Source: Phoronis australis (taxonomy: Eukaryota > Animalia > Phoronida). From it: a stretch of DNA of 64,000 nucleotides. The stretch spans positions 1,079,743 through 1,143,742 of the forward strand of contig NMRA01000066.1 in the NCBI GenBank assembly GCA_002633005.1, read 5' to 3'. A program made the position numbers and the translations under genes. Every line of letters starts with the position of its first letter. Positions within the stretch are counted from its first letter, which is position 1. The notes beneath the pieces are model-generated. The model was not told the origin of the DNA, did no database searches, and was given only the letters and a program-made list of their open reading frames with translations. Shown in pieces: positions 2,698 to 32,040 of the stretch.

Positions 2698-2855
2698 CTT
2701 AGAGGGAGGGGCACTTTATTAGCAGGCCGTGGATGTCTTTATTCCATCCAACTCGAACAAATACTCTCGCAATCAACTTTTTTTTCGAGCAGTCTTTCAT
2801 TCAGATGTCCAAATCAGCAACTGGGCATTTTTAACACTGTGCGCACCATGAGGTA

Positions 2856-3092: not shown

Positions 3093-3435
3093 AGGTATCA
3101 CGTCATTTCTCCTGGGAGTGTATTCGGCATTGCATGCCTTTAGGTGAAACACTACTGCAATGCAGACTATATTTTTGCAGACATACGATCATGCCTATTG
3201 TAGACCAGTCGATCATTCTTTTTTCAAAACGTCTGTGGCCAAGCAAGGAACTTAACGTCAGCAATAACTTTTTTATCCCTTTTCATGACCACTTTGTTTA
3301 TTTGCTTATGATTATGAATCGCAGGCAAACATTTTGAGATGTGAATGATTTTTGGTTAAAAATAATACATTATCGCGTCACCCCAAATCAAAATTTATGA
3401 TATAGAATTTTAAATGAACTTTGAGATTCTCTTAA

Positions 3436-10300: not shown

Positions 10301-10619
10301 TGTTTCTCGTGCTAGAAACAGTCTAAAGGACCACCACCATGAGTGGGTTTTACTGGTCACTGGAGTGGTGTCATGGTTACACACAATATGATAATCCTTC
10401 ACTTGAAGTTTGCACAAAATTGCCATAATGATCATGTTTGTATTTTCCAAAGTCTGTCAAGTTTTGTTGAGAATAGGTTGGTTGCAGCTCCAATCAACAC
10501 ATGAGGGCGCTCTACACCGGCTATGTTTCGCTTGTACCTCCCCACCTTCTGCCATGGCTTGCTCTCTGCGTTTTCCTTTCTGGAGACTAGTTGTTGCAAT
10601 GGTTAGCCTTCACTAAATA

Positions 10620-11028
10620 CCGTAAACGTTCGGGTTAACGCCCATGCTCAGTTAACCGCCTATCCCCTACTTTAGGTGGATTTTCGATTTAACCGTCCAC
10701 TGCTCGGTTAACCGCCCATCTGCGATTTTTGAAGATTTCCAGTTAAGCGCCCACCTCTCAGTTAAGCGCTCATCCCCGACTATTAAAGATTGAAGATTTA
10801 GTGCCCAGTACTACACAAACGCGCGATTCCCCGACATTTAGGTCGATGATCACAACTAGAGTGCCCTGGGCGGTTGTCTGTCGTAATAAGCGCCCATGTT
10901 CAGTTAACCGCCTACCCTGGATTTCTTGAAATTTCATGTTTAAGCGCCCATGTCTGGTTAACCGCCCACCCCCGATTTTTTGGGTTTGCCAATTTAACCG
11001 CTCAGGGCGTTAACCCGAACATTTACGG
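10620..11028. mobile_element. Tc1/mariner/pogo-type MITE
   Basis: 24-bp TIR ccgtaaacgttcgggttaacgccc / gggcgttaacccgaacatttacgg (1 mismatch). TA on both sides (10618-19, 11029-30). Many internal ttaaccgccc/ttaagcgccc motifs. Confidence 0.9.
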
Positions 11029-11193
11029 TAGTTTATTGAGGTTGGTAGAGTTGGTGAGTACTAGTTTCTTTTCTCGCAACCAGAAAGAACATATTTACTC
11101 TTGACAGGTCGAGCTCCTATCAGCAACAATTTTCCAAAGTTATTGGATGCTTGGTGGCGTTGTGATCAGACTGTTCCAAATTTTGGACAACTT

Positions 11194-11378
11194 CAGGGAT
11201 ATTCCTAACCAGGTTTGAACCTGTGCCCCTTGGGCGCACCTGATGATAAAAAGTGCACCTTTTTTCAAAAAGTTATCCCAACTGACTTTGTGTAATTAAA
11301 GTGGTAACATGAAACAGTAGACAGTGTCCACTGTCTCTAGTGCTAATGGCGCAAAGGCGCGGTCCAGGAATATCCCTG
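11194..11378. mobile_element. MITE with CAGGG ends and 6-bp TSD (hAT-like termini)
   Basis: 13-bp perfect TIR cagggatattcct / aggaatatccctg. Direct repeat CAACTT at 11188-11193 and 11379-11384. Confidence 0.85.
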
Positions 11379-13387
11379 CAACTTTCAATGTTTATCATCC
11401 CTGTTCATGACCCGTCCACTATTTCTGACCCAGATTGACTCTCGTATTTGTCTAGATCTTAGATAAATTCAGACTCAACATGGCGAGTATCATCCCAGTT
11501 AATTACGTGATCATGCCCTTGGCATTAATCAACTTTAGTCGCATTTACATGACATTAGTTGGCAAACTGGATCTGCATGAGTCACTTACATGAAGACTAT
11601 CGACGCATGCTCTCATAAATTGCCCTTTCTACTAAAATTTTCGTAATCTTTATTTTTGTTAAGAAATTTGGCAAAATGAATTTTACTTGTCGGCCAGATT
11701 GTTTGCCATGAAGTCGGTACACCTGTTCATGACTAGTGAATGGGGTTGTTGCTTGTCAGTTGCCAATGAGTGCTGACAGTCATGCAAGGTCTGTTAACTA
11801 ACTATATATTTAGACTTAATCTTTTAATGGGGGATTCCACGAAACCTTTTAATGCCAAGGATTTTATGATTGGTTTCTTGGGATATTCTCCCTATCATGT
11901 CGGTATGTTCAAAAATATATACGGTATACAGTACAAGACAAAAGTGGTTGACGAAAATTGTTTCATCATGATGGCCAATTTTGTTAACAGGAAAAAAATG
12001 ACTGGTACTCGCTAATCAAGGTGGCAAAATTCTAATTACACCATGGCGTAGCCTCCTTACTAACTTTCCTGATAATTCCTCTTCGTTCTTAGTTGTAAGG
12101 CTTAGTGACACTCAAGGGGAATTAGGTCATCATGACAGGAAATTCCGGGTCATTTTGTATCAATACTTTTGGCTTCTACTGTAAGTATATACTGGGCATT
12201 TATAAAGGTAAATGGGTCTTGTTAGCCATCTCTGCGGTGTTCTTGTGACTGCTTCTGTGTTTTACAGTGATTTTTTTAAAGTTAAACCTGGAAAGTATTT
12301 TTTGGATATCCATTTGAGAATGTTAGTTTCTTGCTGAAAGTCAACACAATTTCACATTTGCGATTTTCAGCTTTTTGTTAAATTTTTCTCAACATAAGGA
12401 AAAATTTTGAAAATTTTAGTCTGCTGCTGTTTTGGTGTGTACTGTGTAGATTTTTCTTTGCAAGAAATAAGCGAAGAATAACCTCTTATAGAAGTTCTTA
12501 AATTAACTTTGGATCATTTTCTTACCATACTTTTCTGTCAATTTTGTCAGTACTTCAGCGTGACTACTGCACAACAGCAGAGATTTTGCCCCCTGTGGTA
12601 CTTTAAAGCCTCCTAGATGAGTCGCATTGTTGGCCAAAAAGTTGCGAGACACGTCAGGCGACATCAAAATTGTGTGTTTGTACATGCATCGGATGCCAGC
12701 TTTTAGCATTTACTTTGAAATCAATTTCAACCAAATGTCGTCTTGATTACCCTGCTGAAGTTGGTTATCTGAAACAGGCTTTTTAGAATGTTGGGGATGT
12801 ATTGCACTATGCTAATTAACGTGCTGACTTAAAACTGATCCATGTTATCTTGGGTCACACTCTTGGCCTACACACCTTGTTTGCTGGAAGTTACACCAAA
12901 TTGCAGTTGTCGCCAGCTGTTGTGTATGTATGTGTGTTCGCATCATCATGCAAGTTATTATTCTAGCAGATGATTGACCTATTGTATTATAGAATGGCTG
13001 CAGGGCTGTCATGGTAAAATTAGAGTTAAGTAGGCACCCAAAGCTCATCGTATCACCTTGAGCACTGAGGGTTACTTACGGTGCGTAGGCGCTATGTTCA
13101 AATGCCAAAAGGTGGTTGGCTACGCCCCACTACAGCACTGAATGGCTGCGGGACCCTCCAAAGCAGGCAGCGACTGGGACTTGTACGTTATTATTAACAG
13201 GTTTTGCGGTCTACCTAATGCAGTCAAGATGTATAGTCTTTAGTTGTATGACCTGTTTAACACAGAATTTGATGGAAATGTGAAATGTTCGGTTTCTCAA
13301 AAAAGTAAAATTAAAAACCTACATTTAGATTGTTCTTAGTATAGTTTGTGCAATAGGCTAGCCTTATATTTAGTCAAATTATAATCA

Positions 13388-14709
13388 TTTTTATGCGCCC
13401 TCATGTTTATTTGTGGACGCATTATGTCGACATCTCCGTCCGTCTGTCCGTCCGTCTGGCGTCCGTCCATCCGGCGTCCATCCGTCTGGTGTTTGGCATC
13501 AGCTGCTCTATCTCCAAAACGCCTTGACTTATGTTCATGAAATTTTGCTCGTGTTCCGTCCGTGGATGGGATGGCATGAGCGAACTTTCGGACGGATCTG
13601 ACTACTGGTGTGTCCCCTATTGGCAATTTTAGTTTTTTACATTTACCCCTGTATTTTCAAATGTCCTGAACGGATTTTCATAAAGTTGGGTATGTAGGCA
13701 CCTGTTAGTGAGATTACGCTATCCTCTCATGCACAGATGGATTGGACGTAGTTTGCGCTACCTAGTTGCCAATGTTACTGTTTTTGAGTGCAACCCTCTA
13801 TCAACCAAACTGCTCAAAGGATGATTGTAAAAATTGGCATGTATGTTCTTACTATAAAGTGGATGGCTGACGATGATTTTTCGACGACTTCGACTACGTT
13901 GGCGCCTCCTAGTGGCAGTTTTGTTTTTTGCGCCTATGGCTGTATTACCTAAACCGTTCGCAGGATCTTTACTAAATTTGATAAGTGTATTTATATGATG
14001 ATATCAACAAAGGACAACAACTTTCAGACGGATCTGACTACTGGTGTGCCACCTAGTGACAATTTTATTTTTTTACGTCTACCTCCTTATGTTCAAAGGC
14101 CCTCAACGTATTTTCATTAAATTTGGCATACAGGCATCTGTTAATGAGGTGATGCTAGTTGTCCGTTTTCAAATGGATTCGACGTAGTTTGCGCCACCTA
14201 GTGGCTATTTTTACTGTTTTCGAGTCTGTTTTGTGGCGTCCACTCGTCTATCAACCTAACGGCTTTCAGGATAATTGTGAAAATTTGCATGTATGTTTTT
14301 ACTATGAAGTGGACCGTTGAAGACGATTTTCCGACGAGTTTGACTACTGTGGCACCTCCTAGTGGCAGTTTTTTTTGCGCTCATGGCTGTATCTATTAAA
14401 CTGTTTGCAGGATCTTTATTAAATTTAGTAAGTGAATTTATATGAAGATAACAGACGACAACTTTCAGGGGGATGGAACGGACGCTTTGTCCACAAGTGG
14501 CAATTTCATTTTGTTCTGTTTTTTTTCCTTTGTTTTGCAGAAGGTCCTTGACAGATTTTTATGGAATATGGCATGTTCCCGTTTTTGGATGGATTGTACG
14601 TTTTTGTGCCATCTAGTGTCCATTTTTATGATACAAATAAATAACCCTAAAAGCACACCATTTGCGATACATTCGTGGGCGCATTTCAACGCTCTGCGTT
14701 GCTCTTGTT
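13388..14709 (+). mobile_element. Helentron-associated interspersed element (HINE/DINE-like)
   Basis: Starts in a T run. SubTIR atgcgccc (13393-13400) has a nearby inverted copy (ggacgcat) and a distal partner gggcgcat (14677-14684). (GTCC/GTCT)n microsatellite at about 13438-13487. Internal ~437-bp tandem units (aactttc.gacggatctgactactggtgtg at about 13583 and 14020). 3' hairpin caacgc-tct-gcgttg, then cttgtt. Confidence 0.85.
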
Positions 14710-15687
14710 AGTAGTTAAATCACCTGTTGAAAATAGATAAATGACAATTTTTTTGCGAAATAACTAGAGTGTTGTCTGATTAAACTCTATAGAACTTTGT
14801 TAAGCTGTCTGTTAAAGCAGCTTAGTGAATTGTTGATTAAAATTCACAACTAATCAAACATACAGTGACAGGTGCACCACCTATGGGTATTTTCACTTTC
14901 AGGCTTTCATTTGTCGGTTATGAGTTATTTCAAATTGACTCGTTTTACACAATATCAGCAATTATTGTTTCTTCATGCAGCTTTCTAATACAGTTTGCAT
15001 TTAAAATTAGTTACACGTGTGATTACTTTGTCCAATTTTATATGACATGATGAACTAATGGTTTTTATAACATACGTTATGCATGTGATGTGCATGTCCA
15101 ACTATGAGAGGGTTTATGTCTAGCTACCAAGTGACACATACCATAGCTGTTTTGTTTAAATCAGTTTTTGTTTGGTCATTCACCAGTTACCTGCACTTAG
15201 CAACTGCTTAACTTCCACACTGTTCTAGAGTATTACTGCACACAAGGAATGTACAGTGTACCATTTCACTTCAAGAGCAGTGTAGTCTGTGTATAATTGT
15301 TAGTTGCACACTGCAAAAGTTCCCACAATTCATTGCAGTGGCGTAGCTAGATTTACCGCTGCATTGCGTGGAACATTTCTTTGCCCTTGTTTCCTCCACC
15401 ACTACAAATGATCAAATTGTGCACCCTGTCCATGAAAAAGTCAGTTGCTTGTCATGTCTTAATCTGTTGCAGCCCCAAAGTTGAATCATCTTGGCTATAA
15501 TCTTGATATTGTATCTAGTCTTCTTATATGTAGGCTGGTTGAAGATCAGTTTCATTTCTTTCTCCATTTTCGTTCCAGCTGTGTCATCGTTCCGCAGCCA
15601 ATACCACTCGACTTTCGAAGTGTGACTACTTTCGAGCGAACTACTTTCGGGAAGCATCTCGCGCTTCGTCCAATGCTAGGCGAGGCG

Positions 15688-15821
15688 ATGGCGAACGATT
15701 TCGAAGCAAGTCACGAAGCCATGCTGTTCTTCATGGAGATTCTTATGAACAGCAACGACCCGCTGACCATCAGTCAGCTCGCTGGACGATTCGGTAGTAA
15801 ACAGTTTACACAGGAAATGAG
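15688..15821 (+). CDS. Egalitarian-like protein, coding exon 1 (first half of Egl N-terminal domain); alternative in-frame ATG at 15673
   Basis: Translates MANDFEASHEAMLFFMEILMNSNDPLTISQLAGRFGSKQFTQEMR, closely matching the recalled Drosophila Egl N-terminus (LLFFLERLLDKGEPRTVHDLSCQFGNKEFTKEMR). Donor ag|gtaagc at 15822 (phase 2). Strong polypyrimidine acceptor (ttcatttctttctccattttcgttccag) ends at 15578, so the exon probably starts at 15579. Confidence 0.9.
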
Positions 15822-18800
15822 GTAAGCTGTTCTTTGGGTAGGCAACTCTAAATTCTTAGTCTCATTCGTTGCTATTTATTCTTGACCCTTCTAAAGTGGT
15901 ATGGGAATCAGTTTAGAGGTTCTTTCAATGCAGTAAGTTAGCTTTTTTCATTTTCGTAGCATTACTCGATACTATTAAAATTGGCAGGTTGTCATTTTGA
16001 ACCTGTCAAAAATGTCGCGTTGTACTCGTAGAATTCAGGTTCCGGGGTCTAACCTTTTAAATCAAAATCGAATTTGAAAATAATCTTGGCATTTTCCGGT
16101 CTCCTTTAAGAGAAACCCTAGATAATTGTATATTATTCTGTGCTCGAATATAGAATGGATTTTGCAGGTGAGTGTATTCAGTCCAGTTTGCACTTGATGG
16201 CTCCTGGATTTCAGGAACGAACCAGAGATTTTAAATCAAAATTTTGAGTTCAGAATTGAACTTACAGATTTGATCCTGGCACAAAATAGGACTATAATCA
16301 TCTGTGTAAATCATAATGTACTAATATACAGAATAATGTACACTTATCTTGAGTTTGTACTTAAGGTGAGTGGAAAATGTTACAAACAATTTTGAGCAAA
16401 AAGATTAGAACCCAGACCCAGGTCGCACTCGTAAGGCCCATCACATGAAAGTTCCCGTCAGTGTTTTTTGTCGGGTGGAAAATTCTGTTTCTGAACAAAA
16501 GTCTGACCAGTGCTGCGGTGCATACGTAATGTTTATAAATGCACAAAAAATGCACGTATCGCGTGGAAGTCCAAGCAGTAAATTTCTCATTTCTGAATTG
16601 ACTGATGGACGATCTATTTTAGCAACGGCTAATCAGCTCACAAAAACAAGAAAATGGCCATCATTTCAAGTCACGTTTTAAGTTTTTGCCCGTCTTAATT
16701 CTGCTGTCTTGCCAAACCTGTCTGAAAGGCAGGCAAGATCGTCACTGTATAGACCACTGTCCATACTTATCCTGGACTGAAAACACTGGAGGACTGTTAT
16801 GTTATCGCAGTTACTAAAACTGCATTTCAGAATCTAGCCTTGATTTGATTTGTTTTGAATTTGTGATTGTTGGAAAAAATAGGTCAATTTCTTAAATAAG
16901 GCAAGTTTTCACTTCTGGTTATTCATGGTCTTATTTTATCCCGGGAAGAGCTTGATTGTAGTACTTTTAGCGCATTTCCAAAGGAGCCCCATTAGAGGAC
17001 GCGTACCTCACAATAGCGATGGTGAAGTGGTTAGGATGTTCACAGGAATACGCAATCTCTTTCAAACCACCATATTGATAAGAGCTAATCTGCCTGCCAC
17101 CGTTGTCAGTAAACGAAATAACGACTACTTAGTGTTACTAGCATAAAAATTAGCTAAGAATGGTCTTTAAATGAAAAATTCCCCCCACAATTATCTGTTT
17201 ATTTGTATTAACTAACGAGTTCTCGTTCATCCTACCTCACCGTAGTTTGTCATATGACAATTACCAACTTGCACAGCAAAAAGCGGCAAATTTCGGGGGC
17301 GATACGTGGCTTATACTCATTTAGCTTTTGCCTCGTGATCAACATTATTGCTATGCTGCCTTCAGAACCATGGGCACCGCAGTTTTGTCTACGATGCCTG
17401 GCATGTGGTGCTCAGTTATTCACAAATAATGTCTATTAGTGCTGTGTGTCTATCAGTGCCCTCAGAAAACTATGCCGACATTTACATGAGCTACATATGT
17501 TGAGAGATCATTTATAACAGACCTTATGTTTTGATTAATTCTGACTCAGATGGGCGAAGACTGTCAGCTAGTTAGGATTAACATGAGGAGTATTTGTACC
17601 TGAGTAAAATCCGAAGTTTGTCCCTGAAATAAATTTTAATTACCTGGAAAAGCAAATTTGATTTTAATTGAACTTTTGACCGATATTGCCCAAAAGGCAA
17701 GCTGGAACATCTGCTTGGCTGACCTGGCTGTGACTTGAAAGTTGGAAGTTGGAACTAATTAAATAATTGTCGTTTTCACTTACCTGGTGCGTGCTCAGCA
17801 GTGCCGGTCACTTGCGAATGAAATCTTGGTGGGAGATTACCTGCCGTGGTAGGAACACACGGCAGCATTTCAGGGGACATTCTGTGGCTGCGCCAAACGC
17901 AAAAGATACAACTTACTAAGATCACCACTTTTGGTTCTTGGTAAAAATTCCTAAGAATGCCTGGTAAGACATTTTTTTCAGATTCGCATTTCCTGATTTT
18001 TTGTGCGCTCACACCACTGGTGTATTAAAAGCCGTAGTTGCACTTTGTGATGCTTAGGTTCTCTAAACTGCCGGGTTCACTTCGGGCTCTGGTGTGCAAA
18101 CTGCACATGACAGTACTTTTTCTAAGACAAACCCTTCCATTTAATTCATTAAAAATGTCCATTGTGTTAGCATAAATTTACAAGACTTTTCAGGCTCACT
18201 GTGTAATAGATGGGTTCCTTGTCTATAACTTTTGCACGTGTTAGACTTTCATGTGCCCTTGCATATATAGATCCTACACTTGAAATAGTTTTATTTTTTC
18301 AAAAGCTTTCTTTGCTTGAACGATCCACACGCAGGCGACATGCAAAATTTCCAAACCAAAATAAATGACTTCATCACTACTGGTTAATACTATACCATGA
18401 TCTTAGACGAAACGTAAATACTAAATTTTTGAGCATGTGAACAGTTTGATCAGTCATTCTGAAATGACATTATGCTATTTTGGCATTTACTTTTGTACAA
18501 AATGGTAAATAATGTATTTTACTCGATATAAATTTAATATTCTATGAAGCAGCACAAGAATGGGAGTTGGGTATTCTCTGTGCTCCAATTTACTGTTTAC
18601 CATTTTCTGTTTTTTATGCCCAGTAAGTGGGGTCAAATGACCTCGTTGATATCAACACCACGGCATCAAAATGTTACAAGGTAGATCAGAGTTCAAATTC
18701 CTATGGGCTGTATTCTAAAGCTGTAGCTGCCAACAGGGGGCACCGTTAATATTGGTTTATGTTCTAACTCACCGACATACTATTACCGGTAGTGTGTTTT

Positions 18801-20603
18801 TAGTTCTCATTTGTTTAGGAAAACCTGGAAAATATTGGAAATATTTTCAGTGCTTGGAAAAGTCATGGAAAGTGAAAAAAAGTAATAACCCATTCAAAAC
18901 TCATGAACAATCCGCAAGATTAATATAAAATCCTTCTTTATGCGAGTTAGATTAGATAATTGGCCAATTCCACCGCATGCTTTGAATAGATTTACAAATT
19001 TGTCTTAGTGTAATGCAACCTAATTAGTTAATTTTGAAGTCTGAGTCGACCCTGAGCTTGGAGATTAGACTCTGGGTCCTGATATGGTTGGAAAGGATTG
19101 TTTGAAAAAATACATCTTGTCAGCTTTTGTACACGTGATAAACAGTATCTTTTGTTACTGATAATGATATTGATATAGATATCTGTCAGTGTAGCATGAC
19201 TGATGGCTATGGCACTACTTGATATGTTTTCATCTTTTTAACAGTGGAGCATCTAGCTGTAATGGTGACTGCAAGGCTTCAAGTAATGAGGACACTTGTT
19301 TATTTTTTCTATCTGTTATCATTATTATTACTATTATTATTAATATTTCATACATCGAGCTTGACCGCATTTTTGTGTGATATGGTTCTTGCTGAAGGAA
19401 AGTATTATTTATAGCTATGTGGCAATAATGTGCGTCTGTCACTGAATCAAACACACCACTGTTTTTCATGCAAACTAAAGAATCGTTGTACTGGATGTCG
19501 CCATAGTTGCCAACTGTCCCACGTTTGAGGGGTACTACTATCCTGGTTGTTGAAGCTTTGTCCCGCTTTTTGACATGTGTGACGAAATTTTCGTGTTGTG
19601 TATTATGTCTTTTTCCGTTCTATCTACCTGTTTTTCCTGCTCTGTTTTATTCCAGCCACAACTACAAAACACTTTTTGTTTCTTGGTATTGGGCGAACAC
19701 TTGCACTTGCGGTGCATTTTCATTTTCGAATGATATCAATTACACTGACACTTTCTATTTTAAGTTCCCAGCTTGCTGACTCACGCTTTCAGAGTGATTG
19801 GAGAAGGCATGGTTAAGGGTTGTATTCAAAATTGAAGAATATCGTTTGGTGAATGGTGGGCAATGGGGATCACACATCACATCTGGCAGTACACATCACA
19901 TCTGGCAGAGTAGATGGCAAAATTATTGGCAGATGGTTGCTGCCTGGCAGGTCATTAGGCCAAACAAATTAACACAGTTGTTTTGTGTTACCTGCTGGGT
20001 AGCTTGGATAATACTTGTTTGGCCTAATATTTATGTAGCCTGATTGGAGGAGTATAGTTTTTGATAGCCTCACACTGGCAACTGCTGCTGATTAAAACTC
20101 GTGCACATATTGAGAACTGGAAGAAGGCCGTCATGAAGTTTTACCGCTCTTCCCGTGGGCATAAGAATGAGTAAGGTTTATTTTGAGCTGAAAAGTCTAG
20201 TGCAGATATGAAGAAGTGCCTACTTCAGTCTGAGGAACTAGCTAACATTTTCTTGGAAATGCATGACCCGTTATTTTCTCAATTTATTTTTATTGGAAAA
20301 TGAAACCATTAGGTTTGCTGTGTTATGAAGCTTGGTTTTAGTTTTTGAAGTTTTTGGCAAAGTTTCTGCTCCATGAAACATCCTGAAAACCTTTATTAAA
20401 TTTTTAATGTGACACTGAAAGTAGTTTCAGCTCTTTTCTTATGAATCAAAATTGCAAGATCTTTATAGTTGCCTGCTTCTCACTCAACATTTAAATTGTG
20501 TGCGGGAGGTCTGCTTGTAACTTGCATTGCCATCACTATTGTATTTTGCTTCTGAATAGTTTCATCTACTTTGCCATCATGCTGTTGTCGTCTGCTTTTA
20601 CAG

Positions 20604-20787
20604 ACAAGCGGCGGGAGGGAATGAAGAGGGCTTGAAGAAGTTCCTACAGAAGTATCCGTCCCTGTTCAAAGTGACCAGTAACATGGTCAGCATCAACAAT
20701 GATCTCGGACTGTCCGAACCGTCTTCTCCCAAACCCAGTCACAAAAGGTCGAAGTCGCTTGGTGGCAGCAGCGATACGGATGGAAAG
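20604..20787 (+). CDS. Egalitarian-like protein, coding exon 2
   Basis: Acceptor tctgcttttacag| matches phase 2. Continues RQAAGGNEEGLKKFLQKYPSLFKVTSNMVSI (recalled Egl: RQIAGGSQSGLKKFLAQYPAIF). Donor aag|gtttgt at 20788 (phase 0). Confidence 0.92.
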
Positions 20788-23700
20788 GTTTGTTGCATTG
20801 GAGTTTGTAAACGATAGAACAATGTCCAAATGTGGTCACGTTTAGAAAATTATATCTCAGAAATGGCTTATTATTTCATAGCATGCTTTACAAAACGCAT
20901 TTAGGAATTGTTTTTAGAATGCCAAACTGTTGCATAATGGGCTTTTTAAAGCAGGACTTTTATGAATTTCATGAAAAACTCTAAAGTTGCATGAAACTGT
21001 AAGGAAATGGTAGTTTAGACAGCTGTAATGTACCTTTTTGTGGTCTCATTTTGAATGTTTATATTAAGTAAAATTTTATCGTGTTATTGAAACTGTTGCT
21101 TTGCTATCAACATACCTTTCTTTATTGCTATTTTTCTCTAAACGACGTGTTCATGTGACCTAATTAATTGAAGAATGGCAAAGTCAAAAATCAAACGACA
21201 CGGGCTTTATACTTTCAGAAAATGTGTGCTTTTAGTGATTGAAGATCTAAAATAGTTTTGAAGGTATTTGGATAAATGCACAGACGTGTCAACAAAGTCC
21301 TACGCGTACCATAATGCACACCTTTGAATGACTGAGAATATTTTACCTATCGCTCACTATTTGTTGTGGAAAATGGCCAATTCAAACCAAAGTTAAATAA
21401 ATTGTAAATAATATGAGCTGACTTGGTTTTTTCATCTGGGTTTTCAGCATACCAATTGCATTTTTATAAATGGTCACTGGATACTGTCCGGGTTGTTCTG
21501 TTTTTGAAACCAAACCTCATTTCATTTTTTTAGATTTTTGCCAGCTGATAATTTTTTTAAAAGTGATCTCTTATTGAAAGCTACTCATTGAGGAAGGTTG
21601 GTCCATCTGAAGCTCATTTTCTACTCATATCACTACTTGCCTGAATAGTGAGCCAAGCAAATTTGTGTCCTTGTCTGAGCTTTTGCTGTCTACGAGTTGA
21701 TGAGTTGATTGTTGAGTCAGCCAGCTCATGGGCTTCCAACACGTTAACTCTCCAAATGTCAAACACACAGGTTGATGAGGGGAAGTGTTCCCAACACCTG
21801 TGACTGTGTGTCTGTAGTATTGTTTAGACCATAGTGGTGTCAGGAAATTAATCTACGTGTTGAGTCCTAAGTCGAATGACGCCAGAAATCTCAAATGAAA
21901 GAACTCGTCAGCACACTTGTGAACAGGCAAATCTGTGAGTTGTATTTTGAGCGGTGCATGGGACTCGTGTGAACAAAGTACAAGTCTTACCAGCTTAGTT
22001 TTATAAGCGTTGTCCATAATCTTGTAGTGAGGTACATTGCTGCTTGCATTTCAGCTTTGATAGGAAAATGTTGTACTTAGACTTTCTACTTAGTTACCAG
22101 CCATTGCCAAGCACCGTCCGATCATCCCTATTGACTCAATGATTCAATAAATTCAAATGTGTTGCCTGTCCAGGGTGTTATAGTCAACCTGATTTTGGTA
22201 TGAATTCAGTCTTAATTTATTGCTCGTCATGTCTGATGTCAGCCTATCTGGCATTCATCAGACTTTAACAGCAAAGTCACAATACTTTTTGGCCTATGTG
22301 TTGTGCATCTTTTCGGGTGGAAACGTCACTCATCTATTTGTTGTCATTAGTTTGAAATTAGTACCAAAAAAGGCAAGACTTTCAATATTTTGGGCAAAGT
22401 TAGTTATTTCACTGTCCTCAAAATCTCAATTTCGGTGCTACTGCTAGTCTTCGCTTTTATCAAAGTTCTACAAAACTATAGACTTTAACTTTATAAAAAT
22501 GTTCATAAAAAGCCTGTAGATTTAAGGTTTTTAGTTTAACAAAAGCTGTCATTAACTAGGTCAAAAGCTGTCATAAACTAGGTCACATGGCTTTGCCTTT
22601 TAGTAAAATTAGACAAAGATTGAAGGTACAGTGGTAGGGAATTGTGGTATCCATTTCTTTTGGTTGATGAATGTTCAAGATGTCTTTTCAAAGTTGCTGT
22701 TCTAATTTTCTTAATTATTGTCTTGTTTTCGTTTATGCATCATAGCAATGTCAAAAGACCTTTTTGGTTGCACCTCATACTATTTTAGAAACATTTTATA
22801 ATTCCTAACTTCATATTAGAGAGCAGTGTGTAAGACATGGTTTCTGAAAGTTTCCTTTGATTCAAATCAGCTTGAGATATGATGTTCTCCCTAGAGTTAT
22901 TGAAAGCTTTAAGATTCCTAATGACATAATTGTACAAATCTGTCCCTAAATCCATGCCGAACAGCTAGCTGAGTGTTAGATTACTGTTTGTCAGTGTTCA
23001 TACCTGAACAGGTACCCAGTATTCCTGATTCTGCCCCACACGTAACACCATGTTACTGACAGCTGGGAACCATTTAGTAATAAGTAGAAACTCTGCTCAT
23101 GATCGCATCTAATGATGTCTGACTGCCGGATGTTGCTACTGAGTGATAGTGTGCCAGAAAAAGATTTATTGTGTGTACTTTTGATATGATATGATAACTG
23201 TTCTCCTTATGTGATAACAATGCTTTCTTCACACTGGGTTCATCAATCATCAGCCCGCAGTACTAAGGTTGCCTTTTTGCTTTCATCTTTAAGAACGCTT
23301 GGTTCTCAACTCCTAGTCTAACTAAAAAGTGGCAAAACTTTATTTGCATGTATAAAATTTTTTGAAAAATGAAACGGTAAAAATCTTGTGGAAATTTGTC
23401 TTGAGTTGAAAACCTCATGATGCGAGCCATATTGTGAGTTTGCAAAATAATTCAATTATGCTTGGAAGCAAACATTATTTGTCTACCATAGTCATCCAAG
23501 TTTTCAAAAATAGGGTTTTCATAATGGGTATTCCCAGTTTCTCAGGGCGTCCATATCCACAGCATTTCATGGCTCCAAGTCAAATAGGTGTGACAGTATG
23601 GTGTGTTACTGTGGAGATGATAAAATTTCACGGTTTTACCATATTGTAAAATAATTTCTACATTATTTCTGAAATTTAGATTTATAGTTTAGAAATTATG

Positions 23701-23850
23701 TTCTTATATCACCACCTCAAAGCTGTCTTAGGAAGCTACCATACTGTGTTCTAAATTGGAGGCAAATTATTTCTGGTAGATCAGCTGGAGGTAGAAGGTG
23801 TGAATACTGGGTAACACACTGTCATGGTGTACGGTGTTTCTTCAATATAG

Positions 23851-25004
23851 GTTCGAAGTCTGCCCGATGTCAGCACCGAGATGGATGCGGTGAAGTTCTT
23901 TCAGGATCGGCTGGAGCGACGTGACGAAAAGTGGGTACTTATTAAGAGCCTTGCTGGTCACCTGTCACAGGCGTCGCAAGAGATCCGCCAGTGCGTTGGG
24001 CCGCAAACCGAGTTCAAGCGGTTCCTGGTAAAACATCCTCACATCTTTGAGGTGGAGCACGAAATGGTCAGCTTACGCGATCATCCTTTCGAGAAGACAA
24101 AGTCTTCTCCGCGTGATCTCCCTCCTGCCAGTGCTTCCTCTGGCCCTGTTGTTGTGACCACCAATGGTGACAGCTCTGCAGTAAGACGACGACCTAAGCC
24201 ATACGGGGGCAGCAAGAGCATGCCGCGGCCGAAGAGCGAGGGGTTTCTGGATGGGTCGAGTCATCACAAGGCTGGTGGGCGGCCGTGTCCAGTTAGCATG
24301 AGTGCCAATGAATATAAGGCGGTCCAGTTCGTGAAGGGTATTGTGGAAAAGAGCCAAAGGGGGGCAGTCAAGGTGCATAATATCACGAGTCATTTCAGTC
24401 AAGCACCGGACAGTATACGCAATACGGTCGGCTGGACAAAATATGAACTTGAGGAATTTGTGAAGAAGTTTCCAAGTGTATTCCATGTTAGTGAGAATGG
24501 TGATCTGACGTTGAACAAGTCGGACCGTCTCCATGTGATCATCACAGGGTCACGACCTTCGCTCCAGGGCGTGCAGACGCTGACAGGCCGTAAGGGTAAG
24601 ATTTACCATGTAGCAAAGTTATGGGGAATTGTTGACTTGGGGAAACACGAACATGTATTCTTTGATAAGTCGATCATGCCCAAAGACTATGAGGACTTGC
24701 AGAAGCATTTTAAAGTGGGTGAGACATTGTGTTTTAACGCCGTACTAGCACCAAAGAAAAGCCGCGCCAAGTGGCGTGCGACCAAAGTGTGGAAGGATAC
24801 GGAGAGTGAACAGGCAGACACTCTGAGCTCTGGGCGCTCAGCCGACACTGGAAGTGAGTCGTCTGAGAGCTACGAGTCGGAAGTGAGACAAGTGCTGCTA
24901 CGTAGTGACCACGATATGGAGGCTCAAGAGAGCGCCCACGCTGCCGAGATCCTGGAGGAGTTGAACTGTCCCAGTTCAGGCGGAGTAATATGGAACTTCA
25001 ACAG
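23851..25004 (+). CDS. Egalitarian-like protein, coding exon 3 (second and third Egl-type repeats, cold-shock/OB-like domain, acidic Ser-rich linker)
   Basis: 1154-bp open exon containing the 375-aa ORF 23881-25008. Acceptor tttcttcaatatag| (phase 0). Repeats AVKFFQDRL..IKSLAGHLSQASQEIRQCVG..FKRFLVKHPHIF and AVQFVKGIV..VHNITSHFSQAPDSIRNTVG..LEEFVKKFPSVF. Then GKIYHVAKLWGIVDLGKHEHVFFDKS..FKVGETLCFNAV..KWRATKVW. Donor ag|gtagga at 25005 (phase 2). Confidence 0.93.
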
Positions 25005-26386
25005 GTAGGAACTGCCAGACAAATTTCTTTTGTGGAATTTGTGTCAGATTTTTGTATTTTATTTTTGTAAATAGAGAGTTGGTTTGCTGTGATAACAGAA
25101 AATGATCAAAATTGACATTTTTTGTGGAATTCAAGACCCGAGGTCACGCCTAGGCTTGAAAATTGACCAAGAGCATGGCACGCTTTAGGTACTTTACTTA
25201 TATAGATTTGTGCTCTAATCATATCACGTGATTTGTTAGTTTCGAGCCTGAGCCTAAGTTGGGTCTGAATTTGGAAATTAGATTAGTAGTACAATGGTAC
25301 CAAAATTCTCAACTTGATTCTTAATTTTAATTTTGCAAGTAGAATCAATCCAATTTGTAACTTGAGGCCAACTTTGTACTCAATTCAACCCACTGTCACT
25401 TTGCAGCTGAGATTTTGTTCAGTCAGTATTACCAACTGTTAGTAAAAACGTCAAAAAGGACATGCATGCTAGGTATGGTGGCCTTAAAAATGGCACTATG
25501 TTTGATTTTTCTCATCAGCTGTCTTACATTTGATTTTTATTCAAGTCCAATATTCATATATTTATAGTATAAAATGACAGCTTTTTTCATTGCTCCTTTT
25601 AACATTTCTCAAAATTCATTATTTGTGCCCCAAACGTGCGAGCTGTTTTGGACGGCTTCTAATGATTTCAGTTATGCGGCAAGTCTTGATTGGCCCTTTT
25701 CAGACATTTTGAATTTTCATCCCCTTTCCAGTTTTGAACATCAAATTCTCTTGGGTGTGTGGGTCAAATTGCATGAAGTTTTGCTCACTTATTATGTGGT
25801 CCATTGCTGAGAGAAAGTTGTCTCAGATTTTTGATGTTATGTTGAACAACGGGAATATTGGTTGTAATGTGTGAAGACTGATGACAATGTTTTAAAAATG
25901 GACTGTGATGTCTATTATGTATGTTGTTTGAGGGTAGATTAAAAGTTTAAGACATGGTTGTTCTTTACCTCTTGACGATAAGACTACAAGGTTGAAACAC
26001 AAAGTTGTCCAAAGTTTAGGTTCTTTAGATATTCATGTTGATTTCAAAAATAATTATTTTCACAAAAATGGCGTCAAGTGATTATGAACGATTGTGCAGT
26101 GTTTTGGAGCATAAATTAAGGTTTTTAGTCATAGAAGATTCAGGAAATACTTAATGTAGGTTAAAAATGGACAGCTAAATATTGTTGAAACGTGGGAGGA
26201 TGTCACGAAGATTGACAGTTACCTTAAGCACACTGTGTGCTTCGGCAATAGAAAAATCATACGCCAAAAATGGCCATGAGTCCACACTCTTAAGTCATGT
26301 GCATGTAAACAGTCTATAGTTTAAACAGTCTGATGTTATCAATAGGATGTGCCAGCCGTGATCTTATTCTCGGTTTCATCTTTTAG

Positions 26387-26490
26387 TCCGGAAGATTCTG
26401 GATCAGGTGACGACGAGTCAGTGAGAAGTGGGCCGTCCAGAAGAACACTAGCGCCCTCTCCAGATAACTCCTTTATGCAGTATATGTTGG
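26387..26490 (+). CDS. Egalitarian-like protein, coding exon 4 (disordered linker)
   Basis: Acceptor tttcatcttttag| matches phase 2. Reads SPEDSGSGDDESVRSGPSRRTLAPSPDNSFMQYML. Donor g|gtaatt at 26491 (phase 1). GC-richer than its flanks. Confidence 0.8.
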
Positions 26491-27621
26491 GTAATTGCTC
26501 ACTTCTTGTCAGCTGTTTTAAATTGTCATTCAAATGTCTACTTGTCTTATGGCATTTTGAATTTTCTATTCAATACTTAAGTTTCCAAAACACCCACTGC
26601 TCATCAAAAATCAGCAAAATTTTGGAAGTACTTTTTGATATTTTTTAAGGCAGCTGTAAAGCTGTCTTTCATCGTTATGGAATTGGTCTCAAATTGATCT
26701 TTGTCAGTTGAAGATGATTTCAGGACTTCAAAAAGGCTGATAGTTTGTTTAGGCTGCAGTACAAGTTGGCTTGTCGTAGACACGTAACCTGTGTGTAAAT
26801 AACTATTTACAGACGCGCTTGAGATGGTAGTTACACCATGGAACACAAGCTTTCTTATATTTTGCAAATCAAAACGTTACCTGTGGTAGTTGCAAGGCCT
26901 AAATGAACCAAAACACAGCACTGTGTGCTAACGAACACAGAAAAACTCTTGTGATGAAAGAAGTTTTCATAATATGCAGAAATTTGAACATGTTTGTTAC
27001 AAATGTTTAGTCCTCACACCATTTTGTCAACAGTACCTCGGCTCTGCTGTAAAGTTAATGTAATTGTGATTTGAGAAAAGGTGCCAAGTGTTGACCTACT
27101 GACCTAGTTTTTACTTGTATGCCCTTCTGAAACGAAAGTAGTATTCGTTTTGTTTTTTTCTGGCGGAAAAGCAAACAGACGAGAGTCATTTTTAAATGGT
27201 CTGTTTTATTGCAAAGATTTCTTTAACTTTGTATTTCAATTTTTTGCGAAAGACACGTGAACAGAACATAGAATGATTTTTTATATTTTAGGTGTGTTGT
27301 GAAATGGTCATTAAGAATAACAAACTATCAGTTCCTTGGGAACTCAGAAATCACTTCCCTTCTGAGTAAGGAAACTGTTGAGACCAATTTTATAAAAATA
27401 GGTTATACAAATCAAAATTTTGGTTCTTAGACGGAACACGGTTTTGTAGCTGCTTCAAGTGATTTAGTAGTATTTTTTGATTTCCTTCTAGGGTTTTGCC
27501 ATAACTTCTGACAGGAATTGATCAAAAGTTTATAACTGGATTTTCAGAAAAAATGTCAAAATCTTTCCAATCTTTCTTTCAAATGTCATGCATCAACTGT
27601 TCATTTGTTTTCTCTTCACAG

Positions 27622-27806
27622 ATGGTAAAGCGCCCCCTGGCTACATGCTGGTACCCATACCTAAGGTGGGCGATGGAGGAGGGAAGGCAACGAAGTCTGT
27701 TGAAGATTTATCGACAGGGAGAGCTGTTCAGAAGTTTGTCAGTGTTGCTTGTCAGACAGTGTCGACAGGCGACATTATGGCCACAAAACTTTACAGCGAA
27801 GACTAA
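27622..27806 (+). CDS. Egalitarian-like protein, last coding exon with LC8/dynein light chain-binding tail
   Basis: Acceptor ttttctcttcacag| matches phase 1. Ends KFVSVACQTVSTGDIMATKLYSED-TAA, similar to the recalled Egl C-terminus (VDAESQTLSTGDVL). Confidence 0.88.
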
Positions 27807-30800
27807 ACGTCAATGTGTGTGCATGTGTGCAGGGATCAGTAATTTACCCATAGTTCAAAAAATGGCAATAGCTCATTTAAGTTGAAAAGTTTTGGTCACT
27901 TTCCAGTGAAGACTGTAAAAGAAAAACTGATGAAAGTAGTCAATCAGTGGGAGTTTTAAACATTTTTTGAAGTGGAATCTGAGGTCAAAGAACTGAAGGA
28001 AATTTTCAGACAAAGATGGCAGAGAAGTGAAATGAGGAGAGGAAATTTTATTATTTTTTCCGTATAAAGTGGCGCTATGCTTTCATAATACTACGGATAT
28101 TGAGGTCTTAGTTTAAAAAGCCTATTTGTTGTTATACATGGCTGGGCCAAGATTCTAGCTGTACACGACTTGATCTCAGAACTTTGTTTTTGGGCAGAAA
28201 TGATTTGTGGTCAGAATAATGTTATCAATGCCTGTGATCACACGCATGTGCAGCAATTGTTTTTTTTAAGTAGAAGTTGTTTAACGTGTAAACGTGAGAT
28301 GCTGCCGTGCTGGGAAACACCTGTCTATTCTAAATCTGTTCAGATAAAGGAAATAGACCACTTCTTTGTTAGTTCCTGTGCAGAACTTGAACGAAATGCC
28401 GTCGTAACAAAAGTGCTCGTTGAAGTTGCAGTAAAGCTTTCGTGTCGCTTCACCGATGATCCAGCGCCACAGAACTGAGCGTAGTCTTGTGTTACTGGCT
28501 AATATTGTCTTAAGAGAGATCTGATTTGAACCAAGCACAGGGTGAAACTAGAGTTAAAGATACGTTGCCTTGCGCAGTACTTGCCAAAAGTATTCAGACA
28601 GAATGACTTGCCCGTCATGATGGCAGGGCAGACAAACTCGTGAGAATAGTCTCCCCTCATAACTGAGAATGAAGGAGAATTGACGGGAAAGTTAGTAAGG
28701 TGGCTACGTTTATGTGCAATTGGAATTGTGCTTCCATAATAGTCATTACTAGTCATTTTGGCTGTTTTTAGAATTAGCTGTCATCCCGGGAAATGGTATT
28801 TCATCTGGTTGCTTTTGTCTTGTACTGTAATCTCCATGAAACTGCTGACTGGAATTGCATTTTGTATTATTTTTCATATACATTAGTTAGACTTAGGTCA
28901 AGTCGTGAAGAAGTATGTCAAGTGTGTCTTCCAAACTCTGCATTTAATGTTAATCCTAATAATATATTTATTTATTTATTTCCTATCGGCATAATGGTGG
29001 AGTAGCACCTTGTTGTCTTTACAAATTAATTAAGGATGCTGTTTAGTACTCGTCTTACCTGTAAAAAGATCTTTAGTATGCGAGATGCCTGGACTGGTGT
29101 AGTGGGCGACTTTGGAGTAGACGTGACTGATCACGTTGGACTGGATACTAGTGCCTTCTAGAAGACAAGGAGCTCATGTCTAGTGGCATACACTGTAGAA
29201 TGGCCTTTTAGTTGATTGCAGTGAAGAAGTACCTTCTGGTACACCCAGGTGGTGATAAACTTACATGTCCCATGTGATCAGCCCCCATTGTTTTATGAAA
29301 GTCTCCCTATTGTTTTCAGAATTTCCTTATCATCCGTGAGTGTGTTCAGTTTTAAAGTGGCCATAAACCGATGTTCCTTTGTTTGGAAGCAAAATTGATT
29401 TAGGCCACATACTGCTACCAAGTTGGTCTCAAGTTGTTTGTTGCGCAGGCGAGAAGGGATTTCTGGCCCTCCAAGAAACTGCCAGTTTGTTATTTCTGGA
29501 GACCATGCTCACGCGTAAAGTGACAAGCCAATTTAGAGAGCCTAGTTATCACCGATTTCACTACAAAGGAACAATTTGAGACCAATTTCATAACATGGTG
29601 AAGTCTAAATCAAAAGTTGTTTTTTTGTGATGGAAGGTGGGTTTATAGGTAATTGAAAGTTGTTTCTTCTCCCGTTACTGTAGTTTCTAAATTGGGGGAA
29701 TAGCCACGTACAGGGGTCCCACATTTTGGGAACCACTTGAACCTCTGTAATTCAGTGGACAAAGTAGGTTCTCAGAAAGGGGACCTCGGTAAATGACTAT
29801 TACTTTAGGTGGCATGGCTTCGCGTCTCTGTCACAAATTTTTGGGCCTTTCCATTAGTCGTATTTGTTCTGTAATATCAAATTGTTAGCTGTCAGTTCTC
29901 AGTTGGCATAATGTATACACAGTTACAGGACTGTCTACTGGGGATTACTGAAAGAGTCTGTTCCAGGAAAGAGCTCCCACAATGCTGTTTCAGAAATAAA
30001 GGAGTTTTTTGGGACTGGTGTGCATGTCTGACATATATATGTAAAGGGTTGGCATGGTATCATTAATTTCAAGTTTTTAGGCCCTATGGCGTTGAAAAGG
30101 GCTGTTTAAAGTTTTTAAGTTGAGTACTTGTCAACTATTTTTCCTAAAAGATCCCCCTGCAAAATCACTTGAAAATGGAGTTTCTAAAAAGCTCTTGGAG
30201 GGTCTTTCGGAAACCCGGGTATGCTCAGATCCATACAAAAAATTGTCATAACACGGTTAAGAAATTGTGTCTTGCAGTTTCCCATTTAATAAAAATTATA
30301 CAAAACGCCTTGAAGGATAAGAGAACATATTATGTGATTATCAGAGCTAATGTGTACAGTGATTAGATGGTGGGTGTTCTGTAAAAGTTGACACAACTTG
30401 TGTTTGTTCAAGTTGACAAAAAATTGTGTTTGTTCTATTGCAAGACTGGTGCTGGAGCTATCTGAGTATTCTAAATATTCATGTTAAAAGGTCAGTGTGA
30501 CTCAGTATAGTAATCATGTTTGTCATTATCGTATTTTGTATTTTTATATATTCACTCAATGTTATATTTTTATTTAGTGGGTGCTGTTTTGTTTTGTGTG
30601 AATGTCTTAAAATGACTCAGCTCGTTTTTTTTTTTGAAAATGTGCGATTAGTCTGTTGTGTATTTTTCCAAATTTACTTATTCAGGAGCATCTGTTTCAT
30701 GAAATAGATCTCTTTTTTGTCTTTTCTCCAAAAAATCTTGCTTTGATTTGATTATTTGTATTATCTGTGTCATTCTCTGGCTTCCTTGTTATGTAATAAG

Positions 30801-32040
30801 AAACATTTTGGACAGTTCTTTGCAAACATAATTTGTTTTATGCGTTTCTAGTTTCCAACACTCTTCTAACACTACAATAAGTGACTTCACATAGTTAAAT
30901 TAAATCCAGTGTCTTCACCGAGATTAGGTTTGACAAATTGGTGAAGGATTTCTTTTGTTTGGAATGATCACTGAAGAATAACTTACCATTTTATGTTGCC
31001 TTCATTGGATATAAAAAATCCTAATTTACATTCATTTCTGTTACCCTGGCCCTCTGCAACTGTGCATGGAATAATGTGACGTCACTCAGTAAAAGGCCGA
31101 CGCACTATGTCTCCATCGACTCACTCCCTATTGAACAGTTTGTGTTGTAGTTGTGTGTGTTCAATGGTGGCGATTGTTGACACCTGATGGTGGCATTTTG
31201 CAGAGCCCTTCAGGTTATTCTGTTGTTGCATGCGTTGTTGCAGGAGACCTGGAAAATGGTGAATTGGTTCTGTTAAATATCTCCAAGGTAACTAGGAATT
31301 TTTCTTTTACTTCCATTGAAAGTTAACATTCAGTTGTTTGATGAGTATACACGCAGATGTACTTGCACCAGTCTGAACACTGATGCCCATTGTATGGAAG
31401 TGACTTGTGGAATGAGACAAGATTATTTTGAATTTTCTATTTGTGAACAAGCTGAAATTTCCACCATAATATTGCAAGGCGGGGGCACCGTTTGACGTAA
31501 ACTAAACTCCCGCTATTTCCTCCGCATCGCTATCCCTAATGACAGCTGTTATTTGTCCAAAACTGGTTAGTTTTTTAGTTATTGGCTCCCACAAATCGTG
31601 TGAAATACTTTTCAGAGGTTATTTCCGCAAGGTGGCGTCGGTGTTCAGATTGGTTCCAGCAGGTGATTAAACGGCTTGAATGGTGTTTTTTTACGTCAAC
31701 TATTTATCGTGAAACTTTTGAAAGCTCTGTCATAACGGGAGCCATGAGTAACACAAGTATCTAATTTATTTATTAATGATAAAATATATACACCATTCTG
31801 AGGTGAAGTAAACATTTATGCCTATAATAATTATGTACAGTGATGTAATTCAGTATAATAAATATAATTAATGGAGTGCAATACCATAAAAGTGAGCTAT
31901 GTCAATCGTAGGGTGTTTCGAGAATGTACTTTGTACATTTCGTTTGTTGAATTCCCGTTTTTGTTAGTGTCTGTATGATTTGTAATCATGACAAAAATAC
32001 TTATGGTTCAATAAATACATTAGTTATAAAATATTGGATA
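27807..32040 (+). other. Putative long 3' UTR of the Egalitarian-like gene
   Basis: T/GT-rich + strand with no recognisable transposon ends or credible exons. AATAAA near 31857 and at 32010-32015, followed by U/GU-rich tctttttgtt at 32041. The T-rich bias fades after about 32 kb. The true end cannot be proven without RNA data. Confidence 0.45.
32010..32015 (+). promoter_or_regulatory. Candidate polyadenylation signal
   Basis: AATAAA with a downstream U/GU-rich element about 25 nt later. Confidence 0.4.

What the first reader, a model, noticed from the sequence alone, without database searches (positions are those of the whole stretch)
15673..27806. Egalitarian-like gene with no exonuclease domain and a cold-shock-like domain instead: candidate second type of dynein mRNA-cargo adaptor
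Seen: five phase-matched exons give a ~586-aa protein laid out as Egl repeat 1, repeat 2, repeat 3, CSD/OB-like domain, disordered acidic linker, QT tail. No DEDD/EXD1-like coding sequence is visible in the exons or in introns 25005-26386 and 26491-27621. Known: Drosophila Egalitarian links localising mRNAs to dynein through BicD (N-terminus) and LC8/Dlc (C-terminal QT motif) and carries a central 3'-5' exonuclease-like domain; cold-shock domains bind single-stranded RNA. Inference: this paralogue keeps both motor-coupling ends but has a different RNA-recognition module, so it may select ssRNA signals rather than the stem-loops Egl reads. I do not recall this architecture being characterised, but cannot exclude it.
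Basis: partly seen in the sequence, partly recalled or inferred. Interest (0 to 1): 0.88.

Follow-up and report, generated by a model that had tools for sequence, protein, structure and literature searches.

The report
Spiralian Egalitarian with cold-shock domain
This is a real, spliced gene of an already described exonuclease-less Egalitarian-like family of molluscs, worms and flatworms; its central domain, so far called a "unique fold", is predicted to be a cold-shock-type domain, so the protein likely links RNA to microtubule transport, which is untested.

Summary
The gene is real. RNA reads confirm all four introns. The protein has three Egl winged-helix domains, a five-stranded OB barrel, an acidic linker and the Egl dynein-light-chain tail; no exonuclease was found. 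The architecture is not new: it is the spiralian Egalitarian-like family (planarian egal-1; Miliard 2025, PMC12579938), present in 136 of 159 proteins tested. It is probably the spiralian Egl counterpart, not an extra paralogue; no genome was held to test this. What appears new is that the central "unique fold" belongs to the cold-shock lineage, with half-changed RNA motifs (FGF to WGI, FFH to F[F/I]D) and its own invariant surface. Related winged-helix + tandem cold-shock + QT-tail proteins occur in Priapulus and Strigamia, so this design may be ancestral and the fly exonuclease a later swap. RNA, BicD and LC8 binding are inferred only. "ssRNA instead of stem-loops" is too simple, because ED2 keeps the fly's minor-groove residues. 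The scan had not noted this family before, only a related sea-squirt gene.

The parts
15579..15821 (+). First visible exon. Acceptor AG at 15577-15578; coding from ATG 15673 or, more likely, 15688. Holds the first half of ED1.
   Evidence: Pfam WH_Egal E 2.6e-8
20604..20787 (+). Exon with the second half of ED1 and the ED1-ED2 linker
   Evidence: joints; WH_Egal E 1.1e-8
23851..25004 (+). Large exon: ED2, linker, ED3, cold-shock-type domain and start of the acidic linker
26387..26490 (+). Linker exon
   Evidence: joints
27622..27806 (+). Last coding exon with the QT tail and stop codon
15712..20700 (+). ED1 (aa 14-82, split by intron 1), equivalent of the fly BicD-binding domain; fly His31 and Cys35 are Ser34 and Gly38 here
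   Evidence: fly roles from PMC13186709
23875..24081 (+). ED2 (aa 120-188); keeps fly Ser127/Gln128 as Ser150/Gln151
24298..24516 (+). ED3 (aa 261-333)
24577..24798 (+). Cold-shock-type OB domain (aa 354-427), the most conserved part of the family
24799..27734 (+). Acidic, serine-rich, mostly disordered linker (aa 428-568, across introns 3 and 4; 18% D+E, 16% S), with a partly kept family motif near aa 485-494
27735..27797 (+). Egl-type dynein light chain (LC8) motif, aa 569-589; Cys574 and Ser578 align with fly Ser965 and Ser969
27807..30500 (+). 3' UTR, at least 2.7 kb; end not located
   Evidence: continuous stranded RNA depth

Best explanation
The gene encodes a spiralian Egalitarian-like protein with three Egl winged-helix domains, a predicted cold-shock-type domain and an Egl-type QT tail, and it likely works as an LC8-dimerised RNA adaptor for BicD-dynein transport. 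SHOWN: gene structure, expression, family membership, absence of an exonuclease. PREDICTED: the OB fold and its cold-shock ancestry. INFERRED from fly Egl: LC8 binds the QT tail and dimerises the protein; ED1 docks on the BicD coiled coil; ED2 still contacts an RNA minor groove; the basic cold-shock domain takes the place of the ExoHD-XAD module and would grip a neighbouring single-stranded loop or flank. The cargo signal would then be a stem plus an unpaired segment, not the bent stem-loop that fly Egl reads. It is most likely the spiralian counterpart of Egl, not an extra paralogue. Family identity about 0.97; the adaptor mechanism with an RNA-binding cold-shock domain about 0.55.
For: All five parts occur in order in 136 of 159 proteins tested. 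The window's central domain is 57-74% identical to 15 of 15 typed homologue domains, among them Lingula, Owenia and Macrostomum proteins of Miliard's Table S3. ED1 and ED2 match fly Egl. Ser150/Gln151 are kept in 119 of 120 and are the fly's base-contact residues. The QT tail aligns on the fly Dlc site whose mutation abolishes Dlc binding and dimerisation. OB model: VIA Z 9.4 (rmsd 2.4, 74 aligned) to Rrp4 S1, 8.3 (2.6, 72) to the Lin28 CSD; Foldseek's best rows are S1, DBC1, YB-1 and Unr. A broader profile retrieves 30 PDB sequences at E<=1, of which 29 are cold-shock proteins (best Unr 6.3e-4). The domain is basic (16 K/R against 8 D/E) and the best conserved region (mean identity 0.69). Planarian Egal-1 partly colocalises with tubulin, and its RNAi mimics microtubule disruption.
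Against: No binding was tested. The canonical CSD RNA motifs are changed in the whole core family: second Phe of FGF is Ile in 157 of 157, His of FFH is Asp in 157 of 157; CSDs lacking these motifs do not bind RNA on their own (PMC7383231). No Foldseek match reaches E<=1e-3, S1 and CSD rows are nearly tied, and the narrow profile finds no CSD. ED1's base readers are lost (Ser and Gly in 113 of 120). In the fly the Exo-XAD region alone suffices for RNA binding, and XAD deletion cripples it. LC8 often only dimerises proteins, independently of dynein. The BicD-contact residues were not listed in the text that I read, so their conservation was not checked.
Confidence: 0.55

Rival explanations
1. 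The cold-shock-type domain is a pseudo-RNA-binding, protein-docking module (like Unr non-canonical CSDs or the DBC1 S1-like domain). The protein is a dynein adaptor or scaffold whose cargo is a protein, or RNA held by ED2 only.
For: FGF to WGI and FFH to F[F/I]D in 157 of 157; invariant His377, Glu378, His379, Asp373 and Asp383 are specific to this family; DBC1 has the highest sequence identity among the fold matches (25%, Z 8.0), and its entry title concerns a protein interaction with SIRT1.
Against: Trp369, Phe381 and His364 (152 of 157) keep ring side chains at RNA-face positions, with basic Lys367, Arg416 and Lys/Arg418, 420; the model shows no extended beta1-beta2 loop, a mark of non-canonical CSDs; related tandem repeats mostly keep FGF-like motifs (Phe in 72 of 96).
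Confidence: 0.2
2. It is an LC8-dimerised post-transcriptional regulator or granule scaffold (LOTUS- or LIN-66-like) that controls translation or stability of mRNAs without being a dynein cargo adaptor.
For: The ED domains resemble LOTUS domains; LC8 is a general dimeriser; 14 of 120 listed homologues carry a precomputed WHD_lin-66 hit; LIN-66 is a CSD-dependent translation regulator; planarian Egal-1 is spread along fibres with perinuclear foci.
Against: ED1, the BicD-binding domain of the fly, is strongly conserved and closer to fly ED1 than to the other repeats; the planarian phenotype is shared with microtubule drugs.
Confidence: 0.2
3. It is a true paralogue that coexists in the same genome with a canonical exonuclease-bearing Egl and serves a second class of cargo.
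For: Winged-helix + cold-shock + QT proteins exist in two ecdysozoans, a group whose known Egl has the exonuclease, so the two types may coexist there.
Against: 0 of 158 relatives found with exon 3 carry a precomputed exonuclease family; Atlas clusters with WH_Egal + exonuclease are mostly nematode or arthropod; Miliard et al. report the exonuclease in ecdysozoans and this domain in spiralians. My searches were too insensitive to exclude a canonical Egl: fly Egl scores only 28 bits against exon 3.
Confidence: 0.1

Closest known systems
Spiralian Egalitarian-like family (planarian Smed-egal-1, -2, -3; Miliard et al. 2025, PMC12579938)
   Same: Three N-terminal modules, a 67-71 aa conserved central region, a C-terminal Dlc-type motif and no exonuclease; the Lingula, Owenia and Macrostomum proteins of their Table S3 are among my hits.
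   Different: Nothing in architecture. The paper did not identify the central fold ('unique fold' in the review file); here it is assigned to the cold-shock lineage.
Drosophila Egalitarian (PDB 9RVY; PMC13186709)
   Same: ED1-ED3 winged helices, ED2 Ser/Gln base contacts, C-terminal Dlc motif.
   Different: No ExoHD or XAD; ED1 His31/Cys35 replaced by Ser/Gly; a cold-shock-type domain follows ED3 after about 20 residues; 586-591 aa against 1,004.
Cold-shock domains of Unr/CSDE1, YB-1, Lin28 and CspB
   Same: Five-stranded OB barrel; profile link through relatives; aromatic residues at part of the RNA face.
   Different: FGF is WGI and (F/Y)FH is F(F/I)D; no direct Pfam CSD hit; longer beta3-beta4 segment with a short helix.
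Winged-helix + tandem cold-shock (+ QT tail) proteins of Priapulus (XP_014669431) and Strigamia (T1J227); Clavelina winged-helix + ZNF598 RING + cold-shock protein
   Same: WH_Egal domains, homologous cold-shock repeats, and in the two ecdysozoans a QT tail.
   Different: Two to six cold-shock repeats, mostly canonical RNA motifs, no clear ED1; all uncharacterised in their records.
C. elegans LIN-66
   Same: A cold-shock domain together with a winged helix related to WH_Egal (Atlas lead, score 0.79).
   Different: Reported without homologues outside nematodes; the CSD lies at the start of its folded region; no alignment to LIN-66 could be made here.

Membership tests
Spiralian Egalitarian-like (egal-1 family) | Three Egl-type N-terminal modules | tested here: met
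   Pfam WH_Egal on exons 1-3; model
Spiralian Egalitarian-like (egal-1 family) | Conserved 67-71 aa central region, >50% identity among spiralians | tested here: met
   57-74% identity to 15 of 15 homologue domains; definition
Spiralian Egalitarian-like (egal-1 family) | C-terminal Dlc-type motif | tested here: met
Spiralian Egalitarian-like (egal-1 family) | No exonuclease domain | tested here: met
   linker disordered where modelled
Canonical Egalitarian (fly Egl, C. elegans EGAL-1) | ED1-ED3 winged-helix domains | tested here: met
Canonical Egalitarian (fly Egl, C. elegans EGAL-1) | ExoHD-XAD RNA-binding module | tested here: not met
   No such exon in reads or intron frames; 141-aa acidic linker between OB and tail
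Canonical Egalitarian (fly Egl, C. elegans EGAL-1) | ED1 base-reading His31/Cys35 | tested here: not met
   Ser34/Gly38; same in 113 of 120 homologues
Canonical Egalitarian (fly Egl, C. elegans EGAL-1) | ED2 base-reading Ser127/Gln128 | tested here: met
   Ser150/Gln151; 119 of 120 homologues
Canonical Egalitarian (fly Egl, C. elegans EGAL-1) | Binds BicD, LC8 and localising mRNAs | not testable with these tools
Cold-shock domain | Five-stranded OB barrel | tested here: met
Cold-shock domain | Sequence homology to CSDs | tested here: met
   Indirect only: broader profile finds 29 CSD sequences among 30 PDB hits; 7 of 104 scanned distant relatives pass the Pfam CSD cut-off; the window domain alone has no hit
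Cold-shock domain | Canonical RNA motifs FGF and (F/Y)FH | tested here: inconclusive
   WGI and F(F/I)D in 157 of 157: one aromatic of each motif kept, one contact residue of each lost
S1 domain | S1-type OB fold and sequence signature | tested here: inconclusive
   Best Z rows are S1 domains (9.4, 9.3), about 1 above the best CSD (8.3); no S1 sequence among the profile hits
LIN-66 | Homology over the CSD-containing folded region | tested here: inconclusive

The most novel reading that the evidence does not exclude
The ancestral protostome Egalitarian was a winged-helix + cold-shock + LC8-tail RNA adaptor. Spiralians kept it, priapulids and myriapods kept multi-cold-shock versions as an undescribed second class of dynein-linked RNA adaptors, and the exonuclease module of fly and worm Egl is a later swap. 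Planarian Egal-1 would then set regeneration polarity by carrying mRNAs selected through this cold-shock domain.
Probability: 0.3. Interest if true: 0.72.

Novelty: new member of a known kind. Interest (0 to 1): 0.48.

Why it matters
The gene is an ordinary member of a family described in 2025, but that paper left the central domain and the biochemistry open. Naming it a cold-shock-type domain, and naming its invariant residues, gives a direct test of whether spiralian Egal proteins bind RNA, including planarian Egal-1, which is needed for polarised notum expression at wounds. It also points to a candidate dynein mRNA adaptor for spiral-cleaving embryos and large mollusc neurons (my inference). 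The multi-cold-shock relatives in Priapulus and Strigamia suggest that Egl's RNA-reading module was exchanged during evolution while both motor-coupling ends stayed.

Tried and rejected
No genome is held, so a canonical Egl in this animal could not be sought. The profile search for longer relatives covered only 1163-3320 aa and returned 5 known flatworm proteins, so it says nothing about canonical Egl. No RNA holder of the stretch was listed in the run index; the RNA runs came by species label. The narrow domain profile found no CSD or S1 in PDB or Pfam, only DUF7930 at E 0.014 in 3 of 16 members. Atlas hits were all under 0.9, leads only. A complex prediction was not run: no BicD or LC8 sequence was at hand, and the ED1-ED2 contact is weak and RNA-dependent in the fly. 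The tree is the quick version, with the window on a long branch; its grouping with Lingula (support 82) is weak. The upstream exon was not found in 2500-16300. A second Egl-like copy in the window was not found. P0013 is filed under Siedleckia, a protist; I take it for host contamination (inference). An idea that the linker motif explains the invariant barrel surface was dropped: 60 of 158 homologues, including all 35 at P0124-P0158 (flatworm where named), lack a match to my pattern yet keep the surface. Literature searches for a cold-shock assignment found none.
Full report
1. Observation. The five exons join in one frame with GT..AG introns: 591 aa from ATG 15673, or 586 aa from ATG 15688, which has the better context and matches homologue starts. 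Stranded RNA reads from three raw-read runs and one contig set confirm 4 of 4 introns; run X4 gives 17, 29, 18 and 20 reads. Of 12 listed joints only these 4 are GT..AG, and introns 3 and 4 have mean depth under 1 per strand in bins without an exon. Pfam finds three WH_Egal domains. No exonuclease family was hit in 78 plus-strand frames of the introns and downstream DNA or 78 other long frames. Additions: one contig carries 67 bases upstream of an acceptor at 15577-15578 that do not lie in 2500-16300, so another exon or leader exists; coverage runs to at least 30500.

2. Family. Exon 3 finds 220 proteins of 211-672 aa (120 listed) and 38 longer ones; where named they are nemerteans, annelids, a brachiopod, molluscs and flatworms, and 0 of these 158 carry a precomputed exonuclease family. 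With profiles built from the near set, 136 of 159 proteins (window included) have ED1, ED2, ED3, the central domain and the tail in order; the other 23 are partial or divergent. A quick tree of the window protein and 45 of the 158 homologues recovers molluscs (100), nemerteans (100) and a lophotrochozoan group (99) that holds the window protein, as expected of a mostly single-copy gene with local duplications. More distant proteins with the same five parts come from Seison and two acanthocephalans (3 named of 10 looked up), so the family spans Spiralia.

3. It is described. Miliard et al. 2025 (PMC12579938; I saw the abstract, sections 10 and 11, passages, Table S3 with cells cut, and passages of the review file) report three N-terminal modules, a 67-71 aa central spiralian region without an exonuclease site, and the Dlc motif in planarian egal-1 and in molluscs, annelids and brachiopods. 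Their Lingula entry matches P0024 in length and visible sequence. egal-1 RNAi, like microtubule drugs, gives ectopic notum at posterior wounds. The main text and the four supplements held as text do not mention a cold-shock domain; the review file calls the region 'a unique fold'. I could not see Figs S7 and S8, which show its predicted structure. Searches found no paper that makes the assignment; the library lacks most subscription papers.

4. The central domain. It folds with pLDDT above 88 in blocks 241-320 of the exon-3 model and 89.7 alone, as five strands with a short helix. VIA-align gives Z 9.4 (rmsd 2.4, 74 aligned) for Rrp4 S1, 9.3 for PNPase S1, 8.3 for the Lin28 CSD and 8.0 for DBC1; almost all of the top 50 rows are OB folds. 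Foldseek has no row at E<=1e-3, and its best rows mix S1 and CSD. The fold therefore shows OB, not which kind. Sequence points to CSD. The domain profile finds 142 representatives among 1.84 billion. Of the 125 new ones I scanned 104; 17 hit Pfam CSD, 7 above the cut-off, and none hit an exonuclease. A profile of the window domain with 11 of these relatives finds 30 PDB sequences at E<=1, of which 29 are cold-shock proteins (Unr 6.3e-4, CspB 0.004, YB-1 0.005). The link is transitive: the narrow profile finds none. The canonical RNA motifs are FGF and (F/Y)FH (PMC7383231, passages). The core family has WGI and F(F/I)D in 157 of 157, and keeps Trp369, Phe381, His377, His379 and Asp383 in all 157, His364 in 152, and Arg416, Trp419 and Trp425 in all 151 that cover them. 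The domain is basic and the most conserved region. Surface exposure is inferred from the alignment, not measured.

5. The Egl parts. In the fly cryo-EM work (PMC13186709; abstract, sections 6, 7, 11, part of the extended legends, passages), ED1 binds BicD; ED1 (His31, Cys35) and ED2 (Ser127, Gln128) read dsRNA minor grooves; ExoHD and XAD complete the pocket; ED3 is dispensable. The window has Ser34/Gly38 (113 of 120 homologues) and Ser150/Gln151 (119 of 120) at these places. Exo-XAD alone binds the K10 signal (bioRxiv 2025.08.03.668247; abstract, sections 5 and 12), so the fly's stem-loop code cannot carry over whole. The tail aligns on fly 952-982, with Cys574 and Ser578 at Ser965 and Ser969, whose mutation removes Dlc binding and dimerisation (bioRxiv 550277, passages). 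The ED1-ED2 linker is 37 aa here, median 27 in 114 near proteins.

6. Wider family. Among stored proteins 51 have two or more copies of this domain (44 after removing six cluster duplicates and one split model); 21 of the 51 end in a QT-like tail by a loose pattern. Of 10 looked up, 3 are named: Priapulus (3 winged helices, 4 repeats, QT tail), Strigamia (winged helix, 5 repeats, QT tail) and Clavelina (winged helix, ZNF598 RING, 3 repeats). Their repeats mostly keep the second Phe of FGF (72 of 96), and a profile made from them scores the window domain at 70 bits; they were chosen by likeness to it, so this is not independent. The first Priapulus winged helix scores 31 bits against fly ED2, the window's ED2 17 bits, and the Priapulus tail aligns on the fly Dlc site. 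This suggests that winged helix + cold-shock + QT tail predates the split of spiralians and ecdysozoans. The order of events is not shown: no exonuclease-type Egl sequence was available for a tree, and earlier scan notes suggest that winged-helix + exonuclease fusions are old too (unchecked). For LIN-66 I saw passages of PMC11184513 and of bioRxiv 2026.07.07.737059; the link is a lead only. Supplements of the bioRxiv preprints were not seen.

7. Mechanism. Most likely LC8 dimerises the protein, ED1 docks on BicD, and ED2 with the cold-shock domain selects a stem plus single-stranded RNA element for minus-end transport (0.55). Rivals: a protein-binding pseudo-CSD (0.2) or a regulator not coupled to dynein (0.2). 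On a separate question, a paralogue beside a canonical Egl in this genome has about 0.1.

8. Verdict. New member of a known kind. The architecture and a phenotype are published; the cold-shock assignment and the multi-cold-shock relatives appear not to be, and they make the family's open question testable. Interest 0.48.

Noticed in passing
window 15577-15579: Splice acceptor with a pyrimidine tract; one RNA-run contig carries 67 upstream bases that do not lie in 2500-16300. An unlocated upstream exon or leader; the frame is open from the acceptor to the ATG, so an N-terminal extension is possible.
   Followed up: partly
window 27807-30500: 3' UTR of at least 2.7 kb with repeat pieces near 28575-28700 and 29565-29620; AATAAA at 29995, 30288 and 31857-32389; end not located.
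   Followed up: partly
P0218, P0224, P0205, P0208, P0235 and others: Uncharacterised proteins with WH_Egal domains, 2-6 cold-shock-type repeats and often a QT tail; named ones are from Priapulus and Strigamia. Worth a study of their own.
   Followed up: partly
P0246: Clavelina protein with a winged helix, a ZNF598 RING and three of the same cold-shock-type repeats.
   Followed up: partly
window 24966-25000 (aa about 485-494) and homologues: A second conserved short motif in the linker (P-S-x-x-G-V-x-x-W-N-F type), matched in 98 of 158 homologues and not in the flatworm-type set; possibly a docking motif.
   Followed up: partly
Table S3 of PMC12579938: By eye, the Lytechinus exonuclease protein starts with an OB-like stretch before a winged-helix-like stretch, and the Helobdella entry has the cold-shock core without clear Egl repeats in the visible part. 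Not tested.
   Followed up: no
Atlas structure row 8 for P0024: An arthropod cluster of 328-aa proteins (PF29292, under the bar) aligns over residues 113-436; may be another winged-helix + OB protein.
   Followed up: no
window 13760-14710 and 2850-4420: Highly transcribed interspersed repeats with many partly matching reads.
   Followed up: no
window 60030-60720 and 61330-61740: Long CAT/GAT and TA/TATG-type microsatellites that give low-complexity open frames without Pfam hits; an assembly gap lies at 2077-2439.
   Followed up: no
P0006, P0016, P0122, P0134, P0138, P0284: Several family members are annotated 'exonuclease 3'-5' domain-containing protein 1' although no exonuclease family is found in them: likely transferred misannotation.
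   Followed up: partly
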